Below are positions 17,172 through 26,310 of a stretch of DNA of 64,000 bases, one piece after another (within the stretch, counting starts at the first letter, position 1; each line of letters begins with the position of its first letter). The DNA is from an uncultured Chloroflexia bacterium (GTDB lineage Bacteria > Chloroflexota > Ktedonobacteria > Ktedonobacterales > JADMIN01). Under the pieces are notes generated by a model. The model did not search any database and was not told where the DNA came from. It was given only the letters and a program-made list of their open reading frames with translations. Made by a program: the position numbers and the translations under genes. The DNA lies in contig CAWJCH010000015.1 in the NCBI GenBank assembly GCA_963841205.1, positions 400,958-464,957 on the forward strand. Reading direction: 5' to 3'.

Positions 17172-17579
17172 CTCCCAGCTCCTTCTTTCGTCGTGTCGGG
17201 CGCCACGGCGAGTAGCAATCGGGTGTTAGATGGGCGTCTTACCACTGTAGTGCAGTCCCGCGCATCTCGTCAATTCACCTGCGCGTTCACCGCCCAACTC
17301 CGCCTTGGCCTCAGCGAGTCACTATCGCCCGATGCGCACTACTTCTTTCACTCTCTCCATCTCTCTTCTGCCCACTATGCACTCCACGTGCGCTGTGGTT
17401 AAATCTCCATAGGCCTTTCGCGTGCTTCGCGTTTCAGCTCAGGTACAGATGCATGCTTGCCGAGGCTATGCTACAATGGCGCGCAATGCGAGCGCGGGCA
17501 GCGTGTGCCGCCGTCGCTGGAATGGGACGAGGGACTTCGGCGCGGGCCACGAGCCAGCGAGAACTGACGAGGAGCAGGC

Positions 17580-18671
17580 ATGAGCCGCTACAGCACGATC
17601 ACCGGGTGGGGCATGCAGGTGCCCGAGAAGATCATGACCAACGCGGATTTCGAGCGCATTATCGACACCTCCGACGAATGGATCACCTCGCGCACGGGTA
17701 TCAAGCAGCGGCACATCGCTGGTCCCGGCGAGACGGCCTCTACCCTCGCCATCGCCGCAGGCCGTAAGGCGCTGGAACGCGCGGGCATCGAAGGCAAAGA
17801 CCTCGGACTCATCATCGTCGCCACCGTCTGCCCAGACTATCCCTTCCCGTCCACCGCCAACCTCGTCCAGCACGCGCTCGGCGCGCAGTGCGGCGCCTTC
17901 GACATGCAGGCGGCGTGCAGCGGCTTCCTCTACGGACTCTCCACCGCGCACCAGTTCATCGCCAACGGCAATGTCAAGCACGCGCTGATCATCGGCGTCG
18001 AGATCCTGTCGCGCGTCGTCGACATGCAGGACCGCACCACCTGCGTCCTCTTCGGCGACGGCGCGGGGGCCGTGGTATTGAGCACCAGCGACGAGCCAGG
18101 CGGCGTGCTCGGCTACACCATCGGCAGCGACGGCGCCCGCCCCGACTTCCTCTGGATTCCCGCTGGCGGCTCCGCCGAGCCGATCACCCACGAATCGCTC
18201 GATCAGCATCGCCAGTACGTCCAGATGCAGGGCGCTGAGGTCTTCAAGTTCGCCACGCGCATTATGGGCACCGCGATGGAAGAGGCGCTGGCGAACGCCG
18301 GCATGACCGCCGCCGAGATGGACCTCTTCATCCCGCACCAGGCGAACCTGCGCATCATCGAGGCCGCCTCTAAGCGCCTCAACCTGCCGCCGGAGAAGGT
18401 CTTCGTCAACATCCACGACTACGGCAACACTTCCGCCGCCGCGATCCCCATCGCACTCTGCGAGGCCATCGACCAGGGCCGCGTCTACCCCGGCGCGCAC
18501 CTCGGCATGGTCGCCTTCGGCGCCGGACTGACCTGGGCCGCCGCCGTGGTGAAGTGGACCGCACCTCTGCCCACCCTTCGAAAGGTGGCCAGTTTGGTGC
18601 AGAATCATGCCGATGACACCTTGGCAGGACGCGCGAATGGCAAGCGTCATGCGACAACGGCTAAGGCATAA
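17580..18671 (+). CDS. fabH: 3-oxoacyl-ACP synthase III; C-terminal tail after the attachment site is supplied by the integrated element
   Basis: DTSDEWI, AACSGF, LFGDGAGA, PHQAN, GNTSAA, FGAGLTW. RBS GAGGAG. Confidence 0.96.
   Translation: MSRYSTITGWGMQVPEKIMTNADFERIIDTSDEWITSRTGIKQRHIAGPGETASTLAIAAGRKALERAGIEGKDLGLIIVATVCPDYPFPSTANLVQHALGAQCGAFDMQAACSGFLYGLSTAHQFIANGNVKHALIIGVEILSRVVDMQDRTTCVLFGDGAGAVVLSTSDEPGGVLGYTIGSDGARPDFLWIPAGGSAEPITHESLDQHRQYVQMQGAEVFKFATRIMGTAMEEALANAGMTAAEMDLFIPHQANLRIIEAASKRLNLPPEKVFVNIHDYGNTSAAAIPIALCEAIDQGRVYPGAHLGMVAFGAGLTWAAAVVKWTAPLPTLRKVASLVQNHADDTLAGRANGKRHATTAKA
18552..18565 (+). repeat. Left attachment-site core AAGTGGACCGCACC (inside fabH)
   Basis: Identical to 24434-24447. 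Encodes K-W-T-A-P in the fabH frame. Confidence 0.9.
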
Positions 18672-18772
18672 CTAGCGCCAAGTCCGTTTAACGCCAACAG
18701 GGCCGTCCGAACCAAAATTCGGCGGCCCTGTTGGCAACGGTTATTGATGCCTCTGAGTACTCGTCTGCTTAT

Positions 18773-19024
18773 CAGCTCGCGCGGCGTGAAGACCCCTGGC
18801 TTGAGCCATGGGGAGGAAACGCCGCGCGCCGTCAGGCGCTCCCGACCACCGGACACCAACCGACCAGGTGTGCGATACGTACGCTCTACCGCAGGGCCTG
18901 CGGGAAGGTACGCGTGTGGAGGTGGCTTCGGGCCACGACAGGACCGTGTACGACGCTCCTAGCTCGCTAGGTGAGCGGTGGTCAGCCCAAGAATCCCCCG
19001 GCTTCAGCCGTGGGGAGTGGTCAA
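18773..19024 (+). mobile_element. Non-autonomous IS200/IS605-family mini-element retaining a TnpB reRNA-like right end
   Basis: Left hairpin CCCCTGGCTTGAGCCATGGGG. Internal CCGCAGGGCCTGCGGGAAGGTACGCGTGTGGAG. Right end GAATCCCCCGGCTTCAGCCGTGGGGAGTGGTCAA. No transposase ORF. Left boundary approximate. Confidence 0.75.
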
Positions 19025-19161
19025 CTTCATGTATGTCACTCACCGGGGAAGGATGAGTTCAGAAACCATGAATCGTCACTTGTGTACACGTCCCACGGCA
19101 ATGTGACCGCGTCACCGTGGTCGCTGACGCCTCTGCACCAGTTTCCAGCACGCCTCGCGGA

Positions 19162-20183
19162 TCATGCGGGCACGACGTAGGGGAAACCTTTCCTCCTGCG
19201 CTGCGCCGAGATGGATGGTTTCAGCCCAGAAGGTATCGCCGTGTTCACCACGAGGGACAACATCGCTTCGGGCGCGTTGTCTGCCAGCGTGCGTCCGTTG
19301 CGGGCGGCAAAGCTGTAGGTCGCCGGCGTACCGATCACATACGATAGGACATCGGGAAATAGTTCCTGAGCGACGGTCTCGCCGTACCCGTGGGGGTCCT
19401 CTGCGGTCCCGCTCGCGGCAACAACGGCGGCTATCTCGTCGCCGAGAGATGTGCCAACTGATTTGACGTCCTCCGACGGGTGCCGGGCATTGGCGGGGTT
19501 GTCGAATTTGGTGTCATCGGGCCAGAAGATCGGCCACATCATCGGGTGTCCGGCGCGGTTGATTTGCTGCCAGCCGCCTGCGTCCGTGGCAAGCTTGGTG
19601 ACGCACCAGACACCGACCTGGGCGCCGGGCCGCAACTGCGGATGCTAGTGGGAGACCTCCAGGACAATAGATTCGACGGTCGTGTTGCCAAAGCTGTTCT
19701 CTGCCTTTTCCGCGTGCCATCCCGACAGATCGAGCGCGGTCCCGCCTCTGACGGCCGCGTTGACCATGCCGAGCAGCGACAGGTCGATGTAGAAGGAGTC
19801 GGTGATGCGCCCTGCCCACAGCCGCGTGCCAGGGACGTTGGCTACCTCGCCGGTCCTCCCCTCCAGCACGAGTTGGCCCGTTGCAGCGTCTTCGCGGGCC
19901 TCATCCCCGGTGAGGGCGAGCAATTGCAGCGCCTGTCGCCTGTTTGCATCCGGTTCCCCAAAGGACACCCGGAAGGTCAGCGCTTCAAATGCGGCTCGTC
20001 GAAATGCACTTTGAACTCGTAGCGCGCCTCGTGATGGAAGCCCCGCTGGACATCGGGTCCGGTGATGGTAGAGTTGACATCCATGATGAACACGGTGCTG
20101 TTGACACCGGAAAAGACGTAGAGGTCGTCGATATAGAGTTGGCCATTCTGGCGTGCGAGCGGCGTATCCAAGTGGTGGGACAT
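19162..20183 (-). pseudogene. DUF4331-like protein pseudogene
   Basis: MSHHLDTP...DDLYVF start, QINRAGHP and NGRTLADN motifs. Frameshift near 19996 and in-frame TAG at 19645-19647. Confidence 0.8.
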
Positions 20184-20774
20184 GGTGATCCTCCGTTATG
20201 TTCTTGGGTCGTGTCCTTCGCCTCAAGGAGAAGTCGGTCAGGCGAGGCGTATCTTCTTCGTTGTGGGGAGCGGGGCGCTAGCAGTGCCCAGATCAGCCTC
20301 CTGCAACATTCAGACCAGCCACTCGTGTCAGCCCAGTCGAGGCCTATCCCCAAATTGCCGAGAAACTGGAGGATGCCCTCGACTGCGACAGTAAATGGGG
20401 GGGTGTTCGGCGGCCATGAGGATGGCAGATCGAAGCCTCTCCTTGGTACTGCGCAATCTACTAGGCTCACTCACCACTTCGACCACTGCCGTTGGCGCTA
20501 TGCCGCCACCGCTTTCCCCAAATCGTCCGTCACCTGATCATACGAGAAGTATCCGAGCCGACCGATCGTTACAGGCAGCATGTCGCTCGGGAGGACGACG
20601 AAGAGCAGTGTATCCCGAACAATTATGACTCCTCCAACCGCGTGCACCGCAGGCCTGACATCGTCAGCGACCCAGACAGCGTCATCGTTCGACATGAAGG
20701 GGTATCGGTACTTCACGCCCCCACCTCTCTATATACGGTGGCCGTTGTATCGCTGTGGCTGCGTGCCCACCGAG

Positions 20775-22254
20775 TCAGGCCGTCAAAGTAGAGAGCGAAT
20801 CCAGGGCAGCGACCTTGTCCTCGGCCTCCGCCTCCAGTAGCTCTAGGTGCTGAGTGAGCAAGTCGCCAGCGCTGTTTTCAGGTTTGTCACCGAGCGCCAG
20901 CACACCATGTGCAGCGAAGATACCGAGTAGCATCTGAATGAGGTGCTTGACCCGTTCTGGTTGCTCAATTGCCGAGTCCATTCCCCCTTCGACCCACGGC
21001 GGCACCGTACCGTCGCGTTCAAGCACATCCGCCTTGCGCGCCTCCAGACGCTTTGCCTCCTTCGTCGCGATCAGTTCACCTAACTGCCGGAGGGGGGCGG
21101 AGGCAACCGAGGCATCTTGTACCTCGAGCGCCTTCACCACGCCGAGCGACATGCGACGGAGGAGGCGCTGGCGACCTTCATAGCGATGTGCTCGTACCAA
21201 GTCACGCCCTTCTGCATTGAGAGGAGGAGCATCGGCCAACCGAGCGAAGTCGTGGCGCAGCGCTTCCCAGGTTGGATCGGTCTGCCAGCGCGAACGCACC
21301 TTGCCGCGCCCTGGCGTGGTGAGCCGCAGCCAATGCGCGGTGAGGTGCTGGAAGAAAGCGTCAGCGTGGGCGAACAGTTTGGGGAACGTTGCCAGATGCG
21401 GCAACGCTTCCGCCGAGAGTTCTGCCGCCACCTATAAGTCAAGGTCCTCTTCGTCCGTCCCGTCCGACTCGGGGGCGAGCCGGAAGCTCTTCATGCCCTC
21501 GCGCCGGATCTGGAACTCCAGGCGCCAGACGGTCTTCTCGGGATCGAAGGTGGTCGGGTTACGCCCGGCGAGGAGCGCGAAATAGCCCTCGTCGTGGCGG
21601 GCGCGCCGTTCAGTGCTCTTTCAGTGCTCTTGTCGTAGAGGCGGGCCAGGATCGCGTCGCCCGATCCGAAACGAAAGCCGGTGCAATAGTTCCCCTCGAA
21701 GTAGGGATGCCATTGATGCGGCGCGGCTTGACGAATCGTTCGATCTCGCCCGTATCGAAGGTGGGCGAGAACCCACCTTGCCAGTCGATGTGCAGGTCGA
21801 AGCGGGAGGGCGTCACCGTCTCGAAGGTGCAGACCGCCCGCACGTCCTGTGCTTTCTGGTCGTGCAAGAGCTTGGCGCGAATCCAGGCGAGCGATGCCTC
21901 CACCGCGCCACGTGCGCCGTCCTCGTGGGTATGGAGGAAGAAGCTGCGGAGTTCGACGTACAGCCCCGGCCAGGTCGTCATATGCTCTCCAGCGACCTTG
22001 ACCGTGAAATCCTCCAATTCAATGATGAAGCTGTACCCCCTGCCACCCGAGGGCAGCAGGCGCGCCCTGAGCCAGTCGGGGCAGTAGGCGACGCCCTCAC
22101 GGGCCAAGACTTGGGCCGTCGCCTTGTCCTCATCGAGCTTGGCGCGTACCGCCTGGCTGATGCGCGCTTGGCTGGAGTAGGTGATGGTGTCAAAGCCTGC
22201 TAGTTGCGGCACCGCATCCGATGCCGCTGGCGTAGGCTGTTTTGCTCGTGTCAC
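20775..22254 (-). pseudogene. Rep_trans-like rolling-circle replication initiator pseudogene
   Basis: Joined fragments give SRFDLHID...TGFRFGSG..ARLYDK...VWRLEFQ. Lesions: 1-bp loss near 21712, 11-bp duplication at 21609-21630, TAG at 21432-21434. Confidence 0.65.
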
Positions 22255-22306
22255 GTTACAGGCTCCATTCGTCTTCGCCCCAATGAGGCGCCTTGCGATA
22301 ATGGGA

Positions 22307-22344
22307 GAGCCGCCGACCCCGATGCTGTCAGGGTTCGACGGCTC
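22307..22344. other. Imperfect GC-rich hairpin between rep and recombinase (possible origin or regulatory stem)
   Basis: GAGCCGCCGACCCCGA / TCAGGGTTCGACGGCTC inverted repeat. Confidence 0.4.
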
Positions 22345-22573
22345 GCTTGCGTCACTTAACAGGGCCGTGATTACTTCTGTGGACTCGAGTGGACATAGGA
22401 AAGTGGTTTTGTAAACCGCAGGTTCATAATCAGGGCGATTTCCCGAACACGGTCATGGTCTATCTGTCTGAAGGACGAAACAAAGAAATACCTGTCGTCC
22501 TTTCCTGGCCTGACAAGCGATCTGCCAAAGGCGTATAGTGAGTTCACACTGCTTAGACGCCGGAGGTACCACG

Positions 22574-24517
22574 ATGAAATTCGATGCACCACCAAACTCG
22601 TCGGCTCCTGCTGGGGTCATTCCTACAGGCGCCAAGCGTGCCATCATATACTGCCGTGTCTCCTCGCCGGGCCAGAAAGAGAACGGGTCCCTCGATGAGC
22701 AAGAGGCGAGATGCAGGGCGTGGTGCGTCGAGCATGACTGCGAGGTTGTCGCTGTCTACCATGAGGTCTATAGCGGCGAGGACATCGATCGGCCCGAGCT
22801 CGAGACTGTGATGCAGCAAATCAAAGCAGGCGGGATAGATACGGTTGTCGTCGACAAAGTAGACCGATTCTCCCGCGCAGATCCGGCTATTACCGCCTAC
22901 ATCATGGTGGAAGCGGAGCAGTATGGCGCGAGTGTGGAGTTCGTCGAAGTACAAGACGACTCATTTGAGGGCCAGATCCTGCGTGCCGTATTGTCCATCG
23001 TCGCGCGCGTTGAGCACAACCGAATAAAAGAGCGCGTGAGTGCTGGTAAGCGCCGGCGCGTGCTCGGCGACCCAGAAAAAGGCCGCCCTCCTCGGCTGCT
23101 TCCAGGGAATGTGCCGAAATACGGCTGGAAGTACCGAGATGACGAGAAGTCAGCCTATGATCTCGATCCGCATCAAGCGAGTGTAATGACGCGGATCTAT
23201 CGCGAACTAGGCGACGACGGTCGAAGCCTCAATGCGATCTGCAGGGACTTGGAAAATGAAGGCGAACTTCCGCCGACGGCTTCCCTAGTCGCCGAGGGCT
23301 ACAAGATTGGCGGCCGCAAAGTAAGCCCACACTGGCATCCTTCGAGCATTGCACGGATGCTTAAGGAACCCTGCTACTGGGGCGAGGCGGTGGCGTATCG
23401 CTACGAAGCGTTCGAAGGTAGCAAGCGCGATCCTCATACCAACCGCATTAGAAAGAAGAAGCGGACGCGGTACCGCGACCCTGTGAGCGAGATGGTCGTG
23501 CAGTACCCTCAGGAAATTTGGCCTCCTATCGTACCCAAGGAATTGGCGATGCGCGCTATCGCGCGCCTTCGAAAAAACAAATTGGATTCGGAACGTAATC
23601 TCAAGCATACGGACGTATCGTTCCTCAGAGCTGGTCTTGCGCTCTGTGGGTATTGTGGTGGTCATCTTAACGTGCACGCGCACCAGACGGTAAAGGATGG
23701 GCCAATTACCCTGCGGTTCGTCTGCGGGCAACATCGCGCGTATTTGCGACGCCGCCCCGCTGCCAAACCGTGCCCTGCAATCACCCAATTCAGCGTCCGC
23801 GTACAACAACTCGAAGACGCCGCATGGGCATTCATTTTTGAGGCGATGCGCGATCCCCGACGGGTCCCCGACACCTACGAACGCCTTACTGCACGGGAGG
23901 CCACCGTGCGCGCTCAGCAAGGGGAAAGAAGCGACCGACTCAAGAAACTCATCAGCGACGCGATCGGTCGACGTGACGAATACATGCGTGCCGTCGGGTT
24001 GACTCATGACGCCGAAATGAAGATGGGATACATGCGCCTTGCTGAGGAACAGAACGCGCAGACGCGTTCTTGGCAGAGCGAACTCGATCGCGTCGAGCAT
24101 GACATGAATCGGGAACTTGCCGAGACTGAGGCCGTTCGCTCTGCCATTACCGAGATCAATTCGCAGACCGTACGGCTCTTGCGGATGGACACGGCAGATC
24201 GGCGACGCCTTGCCGAGTCGCTCGGGGTGCGGGTGGTCGTCTATCGCGACTCACACGAACCCTGGTTCTTCCTCGTCAGCGATCTGCCTGGTATGATGGC
24301 GATGTGGAAAGCGCGTCGGCACCAGCGGGCACCGGTCGAGCCTGTGCGATTCAGTGATGAAGAGGTTGCAGGCCTGACGGCAGATTGGACAGACGACGAT
24401 CCCGGTCACGTGGTGTACAGAGATGCGGTCTCTAAGTGGACCGCACCCGTCCCCACGCGCTCTATTGGCGCGACGGCGCAACCGCGCGAGAAGCGTGCTC
24501 CCGCCTCCGTGCGCTAA
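22574..24517 (+). CDS. Large serine recombinase (integrase); last 27 codons are the displaced fabH 3' end
   Basis: AIIYCRVSS catalytic motif, DRFSR, recombinase domain, CGYCG zinc ribbon, coiled coil. GGAGG RBS before ATG 22574. Confidence 0.93.
   Translation: MKFDAPPNSSAPAGVIPTGAKRAIIYCRVSSPGQKENGSLDEQEARCRAWCVEHDCEVVAVYHEVYSGEDIDRPELETVMQQIKAGGIDTVVVDKVDRFSRADPAITAYIMVEAEQYGASVEFVEVQDDSFEGQILRAVLSIVARVEHNRIKERVSAGKRRRVLGDPEKGRPPRLLPGNVPKYGWKYRDDEKSAYDLDPHQASVMTRIYRELGDDGRSLNAICRDLENEGELPPTASLVAEGYKIGGRKVSPHWHPSSIARMLKEPCYWGEAVAYRYEAFEGSKRDPHTNRIRKKKRTRYRDPVSEMVVQYPQEIWPPIVPKELAMRAIARLRKNKLDSERNLKHTDVSFLRAGLALCGYCGGHLNVHAHQTVKDGPITLRFVCGQHRAYLRRRPAAKPCPAITQFSVRVQQLEDAAWAFIFEAMRDPRRVPDTYERLTAREATVRAQQGERSDRLKKLISDAIGRRDEYMRAVGLTHDAEMKMGYMRLAEEQNAQTRSWQSELDRVEHDMNRELAETEAVRSAITEINSQTVRLLRMDTADRRRLAESLGVRVVVYRDSHEPWFFLVSDLPGMMAMWKARRHQRAPVEPVRFSDEEVAGLTADWTDDDPGHVVYRDAVSKWTAPVPTRSIGATAQPREKRAPASVR
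24434..24447 (+). repeat. Right attachment-site core AAGTGGACCGCACC (inside recombinase gene)
   Basis: Identical to 18552-18565. Read as KWTAP in the recombinase frame. Confidence 0.9.
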
Positions 24518-24635
24518 CTCTGCACGGGGTTTCCGGCTCATCCAAATCCTACGCGCGTGCGCTATGCTCTGTCGGTGCTACACGCGGACGGGCTCTGCGT
24601 ATCCGTAACCTCATCATTTTCAGGAGATCAATCGT

Positions 24636-24998
24636 ATGGGACTCCGCCCGACGCAGATGATTCTGCGCACCACCTTCGTCATCAACCTGATCCTCGGTAT
24701 CGCCTTCTGGACTGGGCACGAGAACCAGACCGTGAAGGGCATCCACATGCTCCTCGGCATCGTCTTCGTGGCAGCCCTGTTTTGGTTCGGCGCGGCCCAA
24801 GCGATGCGCGGCGGCAGTCTCGCCATCACGGCGGGCACGTTCGTCATCGGTCTCGCGCTCGCCGTCGTCGGCCTGACGCAAGAGGGCATCGATACAGGAT
24901 GGATCAAGGTGGTTCATCTTCTCCTCGCGGTCCTCGCGATCGGGCTTGCCGAGATGGCCGGGGCGCGTACCAATCGGATAAACGCCAGCAAGGCATAG
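24636..24998 (+). CDS. Small four-TM membrane protein
   Basis: 120 aa hydrophobic ORF with HMLLG and HLLL motifs. AGGAG RBS. Confidence 0.75.
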   Translation: MGLRPTQMILRTTFVINLILGIAFWTGHENQTVKGIHMLLGIVFVAALFWFGAAQAMRGGSLAITAGTFVIGLALAVVGLTQEGIDTGWIKVVHLLLAVLAIGLAEMAGARTNRINASKA

Positions 24999-25045
24999 TC
25001 GAAGATCTCGCCAGGCTACCCGCTCCGTCGCCCCAAGTTCTAGAG

Positions 25046-26310
25046 GTGAGCGCGGCGCGTTTTGAGGTCAGATGCCGCGGGCGTAAACCGCGCGGGCTGG
25101 GTACGGATGACTCGTTCACCGTGCGGACGGTAGTGGTCGGCAACCGCATCAGCGTCCGCGCCGCCCGGACGGAGCGTAGCTTCGTCGCCGAACTGGAGCG
25201 CATCGTCGGCATGGCCGCCCCGCATCTTTCGTCAGATGCGCCGAATCTCCTCGTGCTCGCCGAGCTCCTCGGGGTGCCCGCCGCGCTGTGTGGGCTGCGA
25301 GCATGGCCTGCGCGCCAGGCACGCACCTCGGAGTCCGCGCTCGCCCTGCTGGTGCTGGCCTACCTGCCGCGCGTGCTGCGGGTTCGTCGCCGCTGGAAGG
25401 GCATCTCGCTGGCGCGTGCGCTGCTCCTGGCGCGAGCCGATGCCCTCTACCATCCCTTCGTCGAGGCCCTCTCGCGGCTCGCGAGCAGCACCGCACGCAC
25501 ATCGTGGCGACCACGATCGCCCCGCGCATCCGCTTCTCGCGCCGTGTGTTCGATGCTCTGCGCTGGGGCGATATCAGCGCCCGCGGCGTCTACCTCGCCG
25601 ATGGACCCGAGGTCTACAACGCCGCGCTCGTGTTCGGTCCCGATGGTGCCCTGCTCGGTCGCGTCGACAAAGTCCACCTCACCAGCAGCGAGGTGGAGAC
25701 CCTCGACCTGACGCCGGGTCGCATGGAAGATGTCCGCGTGATACGGACGAGCGCGGGTTGCCTCGGCGTCGCCATCAGCCTGGATGCTTTCACACCAGAT
25801 TTCTGCCAGCACCCACACGCACAACACGCCGAGATCGTCGTGCAGCCTGACTCAAACGACATGCCGTGGGCCGGCGCCAGCGCGCGCAATAACTGGCAGC
25901 CTGCCGAGTGGCTTGGCTCCGTTCTCGGCTCGATCCAGCCCGCCTACCCGAACTTGCGTTACAACGTCTGCGCAATGCAGACCGGTAACTTCTTCGACGT
26001 CACCTTCGACGGCCAATCGAGCATTACGTCGAAATCCGACACACCATCGGACCCACGCGACCGCGAGCGTACATTCGTCGGTATTGATGCCTACGTTCAC
26101 CCCGATACGGGCGAGCCGCTGCTGGGCACGATGTTGGCTGTCTCGCCGTGGATCGCGCCCGATCCGGTCGTTGCCGAGTCCGAACTCCGTTTGGAGGAAC
26201 GTCGAGCACGGTTGGCGGCGGAGGGGCGCGAGCTGCTTCCGGGCGGCCGCCGCGTCAACCAGTCTTGCGAATCCGTGATCTTGGCCGATCTCTCCGTGCG
26301 CAACGCATGA
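25046..26310 (+). pseudogene. Carbon-nitrogen hydrolase (nitrilase superfamily), frameshifted near 25483 (true pseudogene or sequencing error)
   Basis: LLVLAE in the first frame. YNAALVFGPDG...DKVHL and GVAISLD in the second frame. Confidence 0.7.

What the first reader, a model, noticed from the sequence alone, without database searches (positions are those of the whole stretch)
18552..24517. Integrase and FabH reciprocally exchange C-terminal tails: the att site lies in frame inside both genes
Seen: AAGTGGACCGCACC occurs at 18552 (fabH codon 325 onward) and at 24434 (inside the recombinase ORF), and both copies read KWTAP in frame. In the integrated state FabH ends KWTAPLPTLRKVASLVQNHADDTLAGRANGKRHATTAKA (39 aa) and the recombinase ends KWTAPVPTRSIGATAQPREKRAPASVR (27 aa). 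Excising the 5882-bp circle would swap these tails and leave both genes open. Known: integration-dependent C-terminal remodelling exists, e.g. attP inside the repressor gene of mycobacteriophage BPs, where integration removes a proteolysis tag. Inference: the integration state could set the stability or directionality of the integrase and alter a fatty-acid initiation enzyme. I know of no described double tail swap with fabH.
Basis: partly seen in the sequence, partly recalled or inferred. Interest (0 to 1): 0.9.

Follow-up and report, generated by a model that had tools for sequence, protein, structure and literature searches.

The report
Integrase and fabH swap tails
A 5.9-kb mobile element sits in the last codons of a soil bacterium's fatty-acid gene fabH, and because its attachment site lies inside its own integrase gene, the two proteins end up carrying each other's tails, which is a neat arrangement but probably harmless.

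Summary
AAGTGGACCGCACC occurs exactly twice in the window (18552, 24434) and only there in the 7.1-Mb genome. It is in frame in fabH (K325 onward) and in a large serine recombinase (LSR) ORF.

A same-genus genome has the empty site: fabH runs directly into the window's right flank. The reconstructed attP is dyad-symmetric, centred on the AA that opens the repeat, as expected for an LSR crossover.

The arrangement is family-wide. 8 of 17 LSRs, counting the query (the 7 others share 52-75% identity with it), end in KWTA plus a host-FabH-like tail. One tail is 92% identical to the FabH tail of a different genus, whose own genome lacks the element.

So the reciprocal tail swap is structurally well supported. 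The regulatory reading is not:
- The swap begins at the end of the canonical FabH model.
- FabH tails are hypervariable, and short or absent in a sister family.
- The swapped LSR residues lie in a low-confidence C-terminal extension.
- No excision reads were found.

Precedents exist: Mx8 has attP inside int, and elements that integrate into tRNA genes restore the split gene. I rate this a new variant of a known kind, of moderate interest.

The parts
17580..18671 (+). fabH (beta-ketoacyl-ACP synthase III) in its integrated, chimeric form. Residues 1-324 are host-encoded. From the K325 codon onward the DNA is element DNA, which restores KWTAP and adds a new 34-aa tail.
   Evidence: Pfam ACP_syn_III and ACP_syn_III_C. 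TIGR00747 fabH scores 406 bits against a cut-off of 292, and the model ends at residue 326. Translation.
18552..18565 (+). attL core: 14 nt identical to the attR core. The predicted 2-bp crossover is the AA at 18552-18553.
18554..18577 (+). P' arm of attP, at the element's left end. It mimics the fabH 3' end and is the inverted partner of 24410-24433.
   Evidence: Dyad symmetry of 16/24, reached by 0.15% of 2000 shuffles. 20 of 21 nt after the core are shared with L016.
18566..18671 (+). Element-borne surrogate tail and stop codon. It serves fabH in the integrated state and the recombinase ORF in the excised circle.
   Evidence: That it also serves the circle form is inference.
18693..18735 (+). 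Strong hairpin just after the new fabH stop. It is a candidate terminator for fabH when the element is integrated, or for the recombinase gene in the circle. It has no U-tract.
   Evidence: -46.7 kcal/mol, z = -5.8, and 0 of 200 shuffles fold as well. The simple terminator scan did not call it.
18768..19025 (.). One copy of a ~257-bp dispersed repeat, MITE-like, inserted in the element.
   Evidence: 86 copies of at least 200 nt on 34 contigs of the genome. No Rfam match.
19162..20226 (-). Two adjacent ORFs of 157 and 193 aa. The first has a weak, sub-threshold DUF4331 resemblance. They may be gene fragments.
   Evidence: PF14224 at E = 0.0034, 17 bits against a cut-off of 27.
20498..20716 (-). 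Small 72-aa ORF, also found next to the fabH junction of the related element in G041. I guess it could be the excision cofactor (RDF).
   Evidence: tblastx gives 39% identity over 59 aa to L042:18220-18396, E = 1.7e-9. Both lie on the strand opposite fabH. No family hit.
20814..22374 (-). Broken copy of a 563-aa protein family of unknown function. It reads in three frames, with two frameshifts near 21617-21715. These are either pseudogene lesions or assembly indels.
   Evidence: tblastn with the intact paralogue L044:6320-8011. Paralogous matches at about 8 other places in the genome.
22510..22539 (+). Promoter-like site (CTGACA, 18 nt, TATAGT) ahead of the recombinase ATG at 22574.
   Evidence: 10 of 12 matches. 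This is a consensus match only.
22538..24517 (+). Large serine recombinase ORF, with ATG at 22574 the likely start. It reads across attR into the former fabH tail and uses the former fabH stop codon.
   Evidence: Pfam Resolvase 3.7e-27, Recombinase 1.1e-10, Zn_ribbon_recom 0.0015. phrog_95 integrase 2.5e-72. AF2 model.
24410..24433 (+). P arm of attP, lying inside the recombinase's codons ...VVYRDAVS.
   Evidence: Over the 36 nt before the core, 33 are identical to L031, and the 3 differences are all synonymous third positions, against 74% for the whole gene.
24434..24447 (+). attR core. The predicted crossover is the AA at 24434-24435.
24448..24517 (+). Displaced native fabH tail (VPTRSIGATAQPREKRAPASVR) and native fabH stop, now the end of the recombinase ORF.
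   Evidence: It aligns to the fabH 3' end of the G002 empty site and resembles relatives' tails.

Best explanation
A 5882-bp integrative element carrying a large serine recombinase (LSR) is inserted in the last conserved codons of fabH in a Ktedonobacteria-like genome assembled from a metagenome.

The element's attP lies inside the 3' end of its own recombinase ORF. Its P arm is the codons ...RDAVS. Its P' arm is a surrogate fabH 3' end (KWTAP, a new tail and a stop) followed by a hairpin. Recombination at the AA of the K325 codon joins host fabH to the element-borne tail, and joins the recombinase ORF to the native fabH tail. Precise excision would swap them back.

This is the ordinary behaviour of a small LSR family that targets this fabH site. 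The swap itself is most likely a tolerated by-product. The attP is packed compactly at the end of the gene, the element restores its target gene, and the exchanged segments are variable and probably disordered extensions of both proteins.

Shown: the repeat, the reading frames, the empty site in a relative, the family-wide fabH-derived tails, and the attP symmetry. Inferred: the crossover position, the sequences of the excised form, and neutrality.
For: - Only 2 exact 14-mer copies in the window and in the genome.
- G002 (same genus) aligns to window 17448-18571 and then 24476-25940, with 24 nt between them in G002 and about 5.9 kb in the window. Site alignment.
- 0 of 40 relatives have a close LSR homologue: the only hits at E<=1e-30, in 3 of the 40, are 29-30% identical. 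In the 18 same-family loci fabH continues after (K)WT(A/T) with a tail of about 20-70 aa (L016 runs off its contig), several starting VPT/VPN like the window's right-flank tail.
- GC falls to 0.54-0.60 over 22200-24400, against 0.65-0.70 in the flanks.
- LSR domains are present, with a modelled coiled coil at 444-548.
- The reconstructed attP has 16/24 dyad symmetry centred between bases 1 and 2 of the core; 0.15% of 2000 shuffles reach this. Identity between attL and attR starts exactly there.
- 8 of 17 family LSRs, including the query, have KWTA in the last 60 aa, followed by FabH-like tails. The P0003 tail is 92% identical to the G009 FabH tail, and L031 2611-2727 matches the G009 fabH 3' region at 84.6%.
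- For neutrality: the TIGR00747 and Pfam FabH models end at W326. FabH in a sister family stops 0-7 aa after WTA. G002's tail is in a different frame from the window's native tail. LSR residues 618-659 have pLDDT below 50. Element-borne tails of the window, L016 and G041 are alike only over the P' arm. fabH is not in a fab operon, so polar effects are unlikely.
Against: - No circle junction or empty-site reads were recovered, so recombination in this organism is unobserved.
- The element looks partly decayed: a MITE-like insertion, and a cargo gene reading in three frames. It may no longer move.
- 9 of 17 family members lack the KWTA tail. At least two of them are truncated or frameshifted at the C-terminus; several others end differently (P0005, P0010, P0013-15, P0017). 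I could not fetch their contigs, so other sites or states are unexplained.
- Neutrality is an argument from variability and a low-confidence model. Disordered tails can carry degrons, and Mx8 shows that an integrase tail swap can matter.
- attB shows no significant dyad symmetry (11/24).
- In G041 the putative attL and attR are on different contigs.
Confidence: 0.68

Rival explanations
1. The tail swap is a switch. The integrated-form recombinase, carrying the host FabH tail, differs in stability, specificity or directionality from the circle-form recombinase, which carries the element-borne tail. This would be a serine-integrase counterpart of Mx8 IntP/IntX. The FabH tail change might also tune FabH.
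For: - The ORF stays open through the att core in 8 of 17 family members spanning 52-75% identity.
- The last block before the core is conserved.
- Element-borne tails are 22 to more than 37 aa long after KWTA, where a stop right after KW would suffice.
- For Mx8, integration creates a new 3' end of int and modifies its specificity (PMC6070905, passage read).
Against: - The in-frame arrangement is inherited from one ancestor, so it has not evolved repeatedly.
- The conserved block is also the DNA P arm, and window versus L031 differ there only at synonymous sites.
- Tails beyond about 7 codons are not conserved between elements, and host tails differ between hosts.
- The region is modelled with pLDDT below 50.
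- No tmRNA was found, so degradation-tag likeness could not be tested.
Confidence: 0.17
2. The element is a fixed, decaying remnant that no longer excises. The two chimeric ORFs are then simply the present genes, and no exchange takes place now.
For: - A MITE-like repeat is inserted at 18768-19025.
- The largest cargo gene reads in three frames.
- There are DUF4331-like fragments.
- No recognised replication, transfer or excision-cofactor gene is present.
- No junction reads were found.
Against: - The LSR ORF is intact over 659 aa and aligns end to end with its homologues.
- Both att cores are identical, and the attP symmetry is preserved.
- A same-genus genome lacks the element, so the insertion is recent on that scale.
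- The frameshifts may be assembly indels.
Confidence: 0.3
3. This is an assembly or binning artefact: the recombinase region was joined to fabH by mis-assembly at a short shared word.
For: The genome is a metagenome-assembled genome in 46 contigs, and a nearby gene shows frameshifts.
Against: - An independent metagenome contig (L031) shows a 76%-identical LSR running into the fabH tail of another genus.
- G041 shows the same.
- Exact 151-264-nt contigs from two public soil runs match both fabH and the element interior, though none spans a junction.
Confidence: 0.03

Closest known systems
Myxococcus phage Mx8 IntP/IntX
   Same: attP lies inside the integrase coding sequence. Integration gives the integrase gene a new 3' end and so a different C-terminus (PMC6070905, passage read; PMC4383910, passage read, also names SSV integrases as extending across attP).
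   Different: By my recollection Mx8 Int is a tyrosine recombinase; the passages read do not say so. Its targets are two chromosomal sites, attB1 and attB2, which as I recall are tRNA genes. So there is no reciprocal in-frame fusion with a host protein. Here the enzyme is a large serine recombinase and the host partner is a protein-coding gene read in the same frame.
Large serine recombinases that target conserved sites inside host coding sequences (survey of Durrant et al. 2022)
   Same: [quoted passage not shown] The LSR gene lies within 500 nt of its attachment site (PMC10083194, passages read).
   Different: Here the distance is zero or negative, because the attachment site is inside the LSR ORF. 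fabH does not occur in that paper's main text (0 occurrences). Its supplementary tables could not be seen and may list such cases.
Integration-dependent immunity of mycobacteriophage BPs and relatives
   Same: attP lies near the 3' end of a phage gene, so integration changes that protein's C-terminus (PMC6109161 passage; PMC4557955 abstract in a search listing).
   Different: In BPs the gene is the repressor, and the removed part is an ssrA-like degradation tag. The integrases used are tyrosine integrases by my recollection. Here the gene is the recombinase itself. No repressor was identified, and tag-likeness could not be tested.
Target-restoring integration into the 3' end of genes (tRNA/tmRNA islands; recalled examples are phage 21/e14 in icd and Bxb1 in groEL1)
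   Same: The element carries a surrogate 3' end, so the split gene stays functional (principle stated in the PMC4383910 abstract). Here KWTAP is restored codon for codon.
   Different: The icd and groEL1 examples come from memory, not from a call. In those cases the displaced host fragment is not described as being read as part of the integrase.

Membership tests
Large serine recombinase / serine integrase | N-terminal resolvase catalytic domain | tested here: met
   PF00239 at 3.7e-27, residues 35-174. RVSS motif at residues 40-43.
Large serine recombinase / serine integrase | Recombinase domain (PF07508) | tested here: met
   1.1e-10, 42 bits against a cut-off of 21.
Large serine recombinase / serine integrase | Zinc beta-ribbon domain with inserted coiled coil | tested here: inconclusive
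   PF13408 scores 19.3 bits, below the cut-off of 25.3 (E = 0.0015). Against that, 13 of the 16 closest homologues (P0003-P0018) carry it precomputed, four Cys are invariant (C370, C373, C396, C412), and long helices are modelled at 444-548.
Large serine recombinase / serine integrase | Short dyad-symmetric attP with the crossover at a central dinucleotide | tested here: met
   16/24 symmetry centred on AA at the start of the identity block, reached by 0.15% of shuffles. This is in silico only.
Large serine recombinase / serine integrase | Catalyses attP x attB integration | not testable with these tools
   Indirect only: the empty site in G002. No junction reads.
Mx8-type integrase with attP inside int | attP within the integrase ORF, so that integration changes the integrase C-terminus | tested here: met
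   The ORF reads across attR into the former fabH tail. This is family-wide.
Mx8-type integrase with attP inside int | Tyrosine recombinase | tested here: not met
   The enzyme has serine recombinase domains.
Mx8-type integrase with attP inside int | The prophage-form integrase has altered activity | not testable with these tools
   This needs biochemistry.
BPs-type integration-dependent immunity | attP inside the repressor gene | tested here: not met
   attP is inside the recombinase gene. No repressor-like family was found in the element.
BPs-type integration-dependent immunity | ssrA-like degradation tag on the free-form protein, removed by integration | tested here: inconclusive
   The free-form tail would end ...TTAKA. 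No tmRNA was found in the assembly to compare with (aragorn found 0; RF00023 gave nothing over the cut-off).
FabH (KAS III) | Match to the curated fabH model above its cut-off | tested here: met
   TIGR00747 at 406 bits against 292; NF006829 at 429 against 249.
Target-restoring integrative element | The element supplies a surrogate end of the split gene | tested here: met
   The 14 nt encoding K-W-T-A-P are identical at attL, and a new tail, a stop and a hairpin follow.

The most novel reading that the evidence does not exclude
This LSR family has evolved a state sensor. Because attP sits in its own last codons, the enzyme made from the chromosome carries the host's FabH tail, and the enzyme made from the excised circle carries an element-encoded tail. 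The two isoforms would differ in stability or in preference for integration versus excision. That would be a serine-integrase counterpart of Mx8 IntP/IntX, with the reciprocal change in FabH giving the element a handle on host lipid synthesis.
Probability: 0.15. Interest if true: 0.7.

Novelty: new variant of a known kind. Interest (0 to 1): 0.45.

Why it matters
It documents a small family of serine integrases whose attachment site lies inside their own coding sequence and inside a conserved host gene, in the same reading frame. Integrated and free states therefore encode different integrase and FabH C-termini. For mobile-element biology this extends the Mx8-type "integrase rewritten by integration" arrangement to serine recombinases and to a protein-coding target. 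For annotators, it warns that the 3' ends of both genes are chimeric and depend on integration state. For tool builders, it offers an LSR with a defined, conserved bacterial target and a compact attP. If the isoforms differ in function, it would be a simple built-in directionality or stability control. My evidence makes that the less likely case.

Tried and rejected
**Sequencing runs.** The search found only 2 soil runs, holding 5-7% of the words. Laid on 17600-25600, they gave short contigs of 151-264 nt with none across either junction. They say nothing on excision, the empty site or habitat.

**Collection scans.**
- P0002 alone against genome contigs found nothing.
- Alignment A1 against viral contigs found nothing.
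- Alignment A1 against metagenome contigs gave 3 loci, of which only L031 and L032 are family members.
- Alignment A1 against genome contigs gave 1 locus, L034.
Both ends were therefore seen only for the window.

**Cargo function.**
- Pfam, PHROGs and NCBIfam gave no hit for the 214-aa, 218-aa and 72-aa ORFs.
- The intact 563-aa paralogue gave no Pfam hit. It gave only marginal PHROG hits at E = 0.002-0.02 and a spurious PDB hit to a ribosomal protein.
- Its AlphaFold model had pLDDT 40.5, so I ran no fold search.
- My impression that it resembles rolling-circle replication initiators is from memory and unsupported, so I dropped it.

**Degradation-tag test.** No tmRNA was found.

**Other checks.**
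- Rfam found nothing in 18500-24700.
- I asked whether the G010 tail (LRTREKV), which resembles the element-borne tail, marks a degraded element. No element gene and no second KWTA site lie in the 18 kb downstream, so I treat that tail as native.
- G041: the attL-like and attR sites lie on different contigs, and the attP symmetry is not significant (12/24). I left it as a probable, unproven second complete instance.
- The 50%-cluster library added only one further family member, P0035, which has a different end.
- My first regex for fabH ends picked wrong places and was replaced.

**Literature.** Searches for a described case found none: fabH + prophage + attB + integrase gave 1 irrelevant paper; LSR + attP within or overlapping the integrase gave 2 irrelevant papers. 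Supplements are closed and may hold relevant tables.

Full report
**1. The observation**

The 14-mer AAGTGGACCGCACC occurs at 18552 and 24434 on the + strand and nowhere else in the window, even with one mismatch allowed. 0.04 matches are expected by chance, and 0 of 100 shuffles gave two. In the whole 7.13-Mb assembly (46 contigs; the window is contig C15, 400958-464957) these are the only exact copies. Similarity continues to 20 of 23 nt.

The left copy lies in a 363-aa ORF that ends KWTAPLPTLRKV...TTAKA. The right copy lies in a 659-aa ORF that ends KWTAPVPTRSIGATAQPREKRAPASVR. Both read KWTAP in frame.

**2. The two genes**

- The left ORF is FabH. It has Pfam ACP_syn_III and ACP_syn_III_C. 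TIGR00747 scores 406 bits against a cut-off of 292, and the model's last position aligns to W326. The repeat, starting at K325, therefore begins at the very end of the canonical enzyme.
- The right ORF is a large serine recombinase. It has Resolvase and Recombinase domains, a sub-threshold zinc-ribbon match, a phrog_95 integrase match at 2.5e-72, and a long modelled coiled coil.
- A promoter-like site at 22510-22539 suggests the ATG at 22574 is the start.
- fabH is not in a fab operon here.

**3. It is an insertion**

- FabH was found in all 40 relatives searched. The recombinase has no close homologue in any of them: the only hits at E<=1e-30, in 3 of the 40, are 29-30% identical.
- The same-genus genome G002 aligns to window 17448-18571 and then directly to 24476-25940. 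The three-way alignment shows its fabH 3' end continuing into what is the window's right flank.
- In the 18 loci of the same family, fabH continues after (K)WT(A/T) with a variable tail of about 20-70 aa. Several begin VPT or VPN, like the window's right-flank tail.
- GC content drops to 0.54-0.60 across the recombinase gene, against 0.65-0.70 in the flanks.

**4. The site looks like a serine-integrase attP**

I rebuilt attP in a script from the element-side halves. It has 16 of 24 complementary positions around a centre lying between the first and second base of the 14-mer. Only 0.15% of 2000 shuffles reach that value. The identity between attL and attR starts exactly at that AA, and the left arms are unrelated up to it. 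This fits a 2-bp crossover at 18552-18553 and 24434-24435.

attB has no significant symmetry (11/24). Identity extends rightwards because the element's P' arm copies the fabH 3' end, so K-W-T-A-P is restored codon for codon.

After the new stop at 18669-18671 there is a strong hairpin (-46.7 kcal/mol, z = -5.8). It would follow fabH in the integrated state and the recombinase ORF in the circle. That dual role is my inference.

**5. It is a family trait**

- A protein search gave 16 homologues at 30-75% identity to the query (BLASTP gives 76% for the closest), one of them from a Ktedonobacterales genome.
- Counting the query, 8 of the 17 aligned proteins have KWTA within the last 60 residues, followed by a FabH-like tail.
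- The tail of P0003 (a 76%-identical recombinase) is 92% identical to the FabH tail of G009, a different genus whose own genome lacks the recombinase.
- At the DNA level, L031 2611-2727 matches the G009 fabH 3' region at 84.6%. This is a second, independent occupied/empty pair.
- The tails of P0009 and P0016 resemble the FabH tail of G023.
- In G041 the recombinase ends LKWTAPVPTT..., while its fabH, on another contig, ends KWTASLSPLEN....
- In G020, fabH runs off a contig end. 20 of the 21 nt after the core are identical to the window's element side. This is probably a further attL.
- The family is small. In the 50%-identity library only about four representatives score above 500 bits, and the next scores 393. 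Across the species-representative genomes, the scan found one other carrier.
- The remaining 9 of 17 proteins lack the tail. At least two of them are truncated or frameshifted at the C-terminus; several others end differently. I could not fetch their contigs.

**6. Does the swap matter?**

The evidence leans towards no.

- On the FabH side, the exchange starts after the last model position.
- FabH tails share nothing beyond about PVP. G002's tail is even in a different frame from the window's native tail.
- In a sister family, FabH stops 0-7 residues after WTA.
- On the recombinase side, the exchanged residues 638-659 lie in a stretch (618-659) modelled with pLDDT below 50.
- The conserved block just before KWTA is also the DNA P arm. 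The window and L031 differ there at only 3 of 36 nt, all synonymous, against 74% identity for the whole gene. DNA-site constraint is enough to explain that conservation.
- Element-borne tails of three elements agree only over the P' arm.

Against this, the tails are longer than target restoration needs. Mx8 also shows that an integrase tail swap can change activity (PMC6070905, passage read). I could not test for a degradation tag, because no tmRNA was found in the assembly.

**7. State of the element**

- It carries one copy of a ~257-bp repeat that has 86 copies of at least 200 nt on 34 contigs.
- It has ORFs with a sub-threshold DUF4331 resemblance.
- It has a 72-aa ORF shared with the G041 element next to its fabH junction.
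- It has a copy of a 563-aa protein family that reads in three frames here but is intact on contig C28.
- These may be signs of decay, or the frameshifts may be assembly indels.
- No reads or contigs across either junction or the joined forms were found.

**8. Comparison with what is known**

- attP inside an integrase ORF is described for Mx8 and for SSV-type integrases (PMC6070905 and PMC4383910, passages read).
- C-terminal remodelling by integration is described for BPs-type repressors (PMC6109161, passage read).
- LSR families that target one conserved site in a coding sequence, with the gene within 500 nt of the site, are common (PMC10083194, passages read). fabH has 0 occurrences in that paper's main text.
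- My searches found no description of a serine integrase whose ORF crosses attP, or of fabH as a target. Supplements were closed.

I therefore class this as a new variant of a known kind. It is a real and tidy arrangement, family-wide, and probably without a regulatory role.

Noticed in passing
window 18768-19025, plus 85 other places in the genome: A ~257-bp dispersed repeat at 88-99.6% identity, with 86 copies of at least 200 nt on 34 of 46 contigs. It has hairpin-like ends. It looks like a MITE. There is no Rfam match.
   Followed up: partly
window 20814-22374 (-); intact copy at L044:6320-8011 (G000:C28): A 563-aa protein family of unknown function with matches at about 8 other places in this genome (35-83% identity). 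Several copies, including the window's, read in more than one frame. No Pfam hit, and the AlphaFold model was poor (pLDDT 40.5).
   Followed up: partly
window 20498-20716 (-) and L042:18139-18426: A small ORF conserved between the window's element and DNA next to the fabH junction in G041 (39% identity over 59 aa). It belongs to no known family. It is a candidate accessory or excision factor.
   Followed up: partly
G041: C56:94510-95538 (fabH) and C57:16169-18067 (recombinase): The two junction-like sites of the related element lie on different large contigs. If they are one element, it spans at least about 110 kb; otherwise the genome is rearranged. Next to the fabH junction lie a PD-(D/E)XK nuclease gene and a 106-aa ORF.
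   Followed up: partly
L002 (G002) fabH 3' end: The same-genus relative's fabH tail is in a different frame from the window's displaced native tail, giving a 409-aa open frame. This is an indel in one of the two lineages.
   Followed up: no
G000:C27:49910-50286 (L046): An N-terminal fragment of a second recombinase of the same family (72-77% identity over about 100 aa, split over frames). It is probably a remnant of another element.
   Followed up: no
L016 (G020:C120, contig start): The contig ends about 50 nt after the fabH att core, and the sequence after the core matches the window's element side at 20 of 21 nt. An unassembled related element is likely there.
   Followed up: no
L044:10018-11019 (G000:C28): A TnpB-like gene (OrfB_IS605 plus the Cas12f1-like TNB domain) lies 2 kb from the intact 563-aa paralogue.
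   Followed up: no
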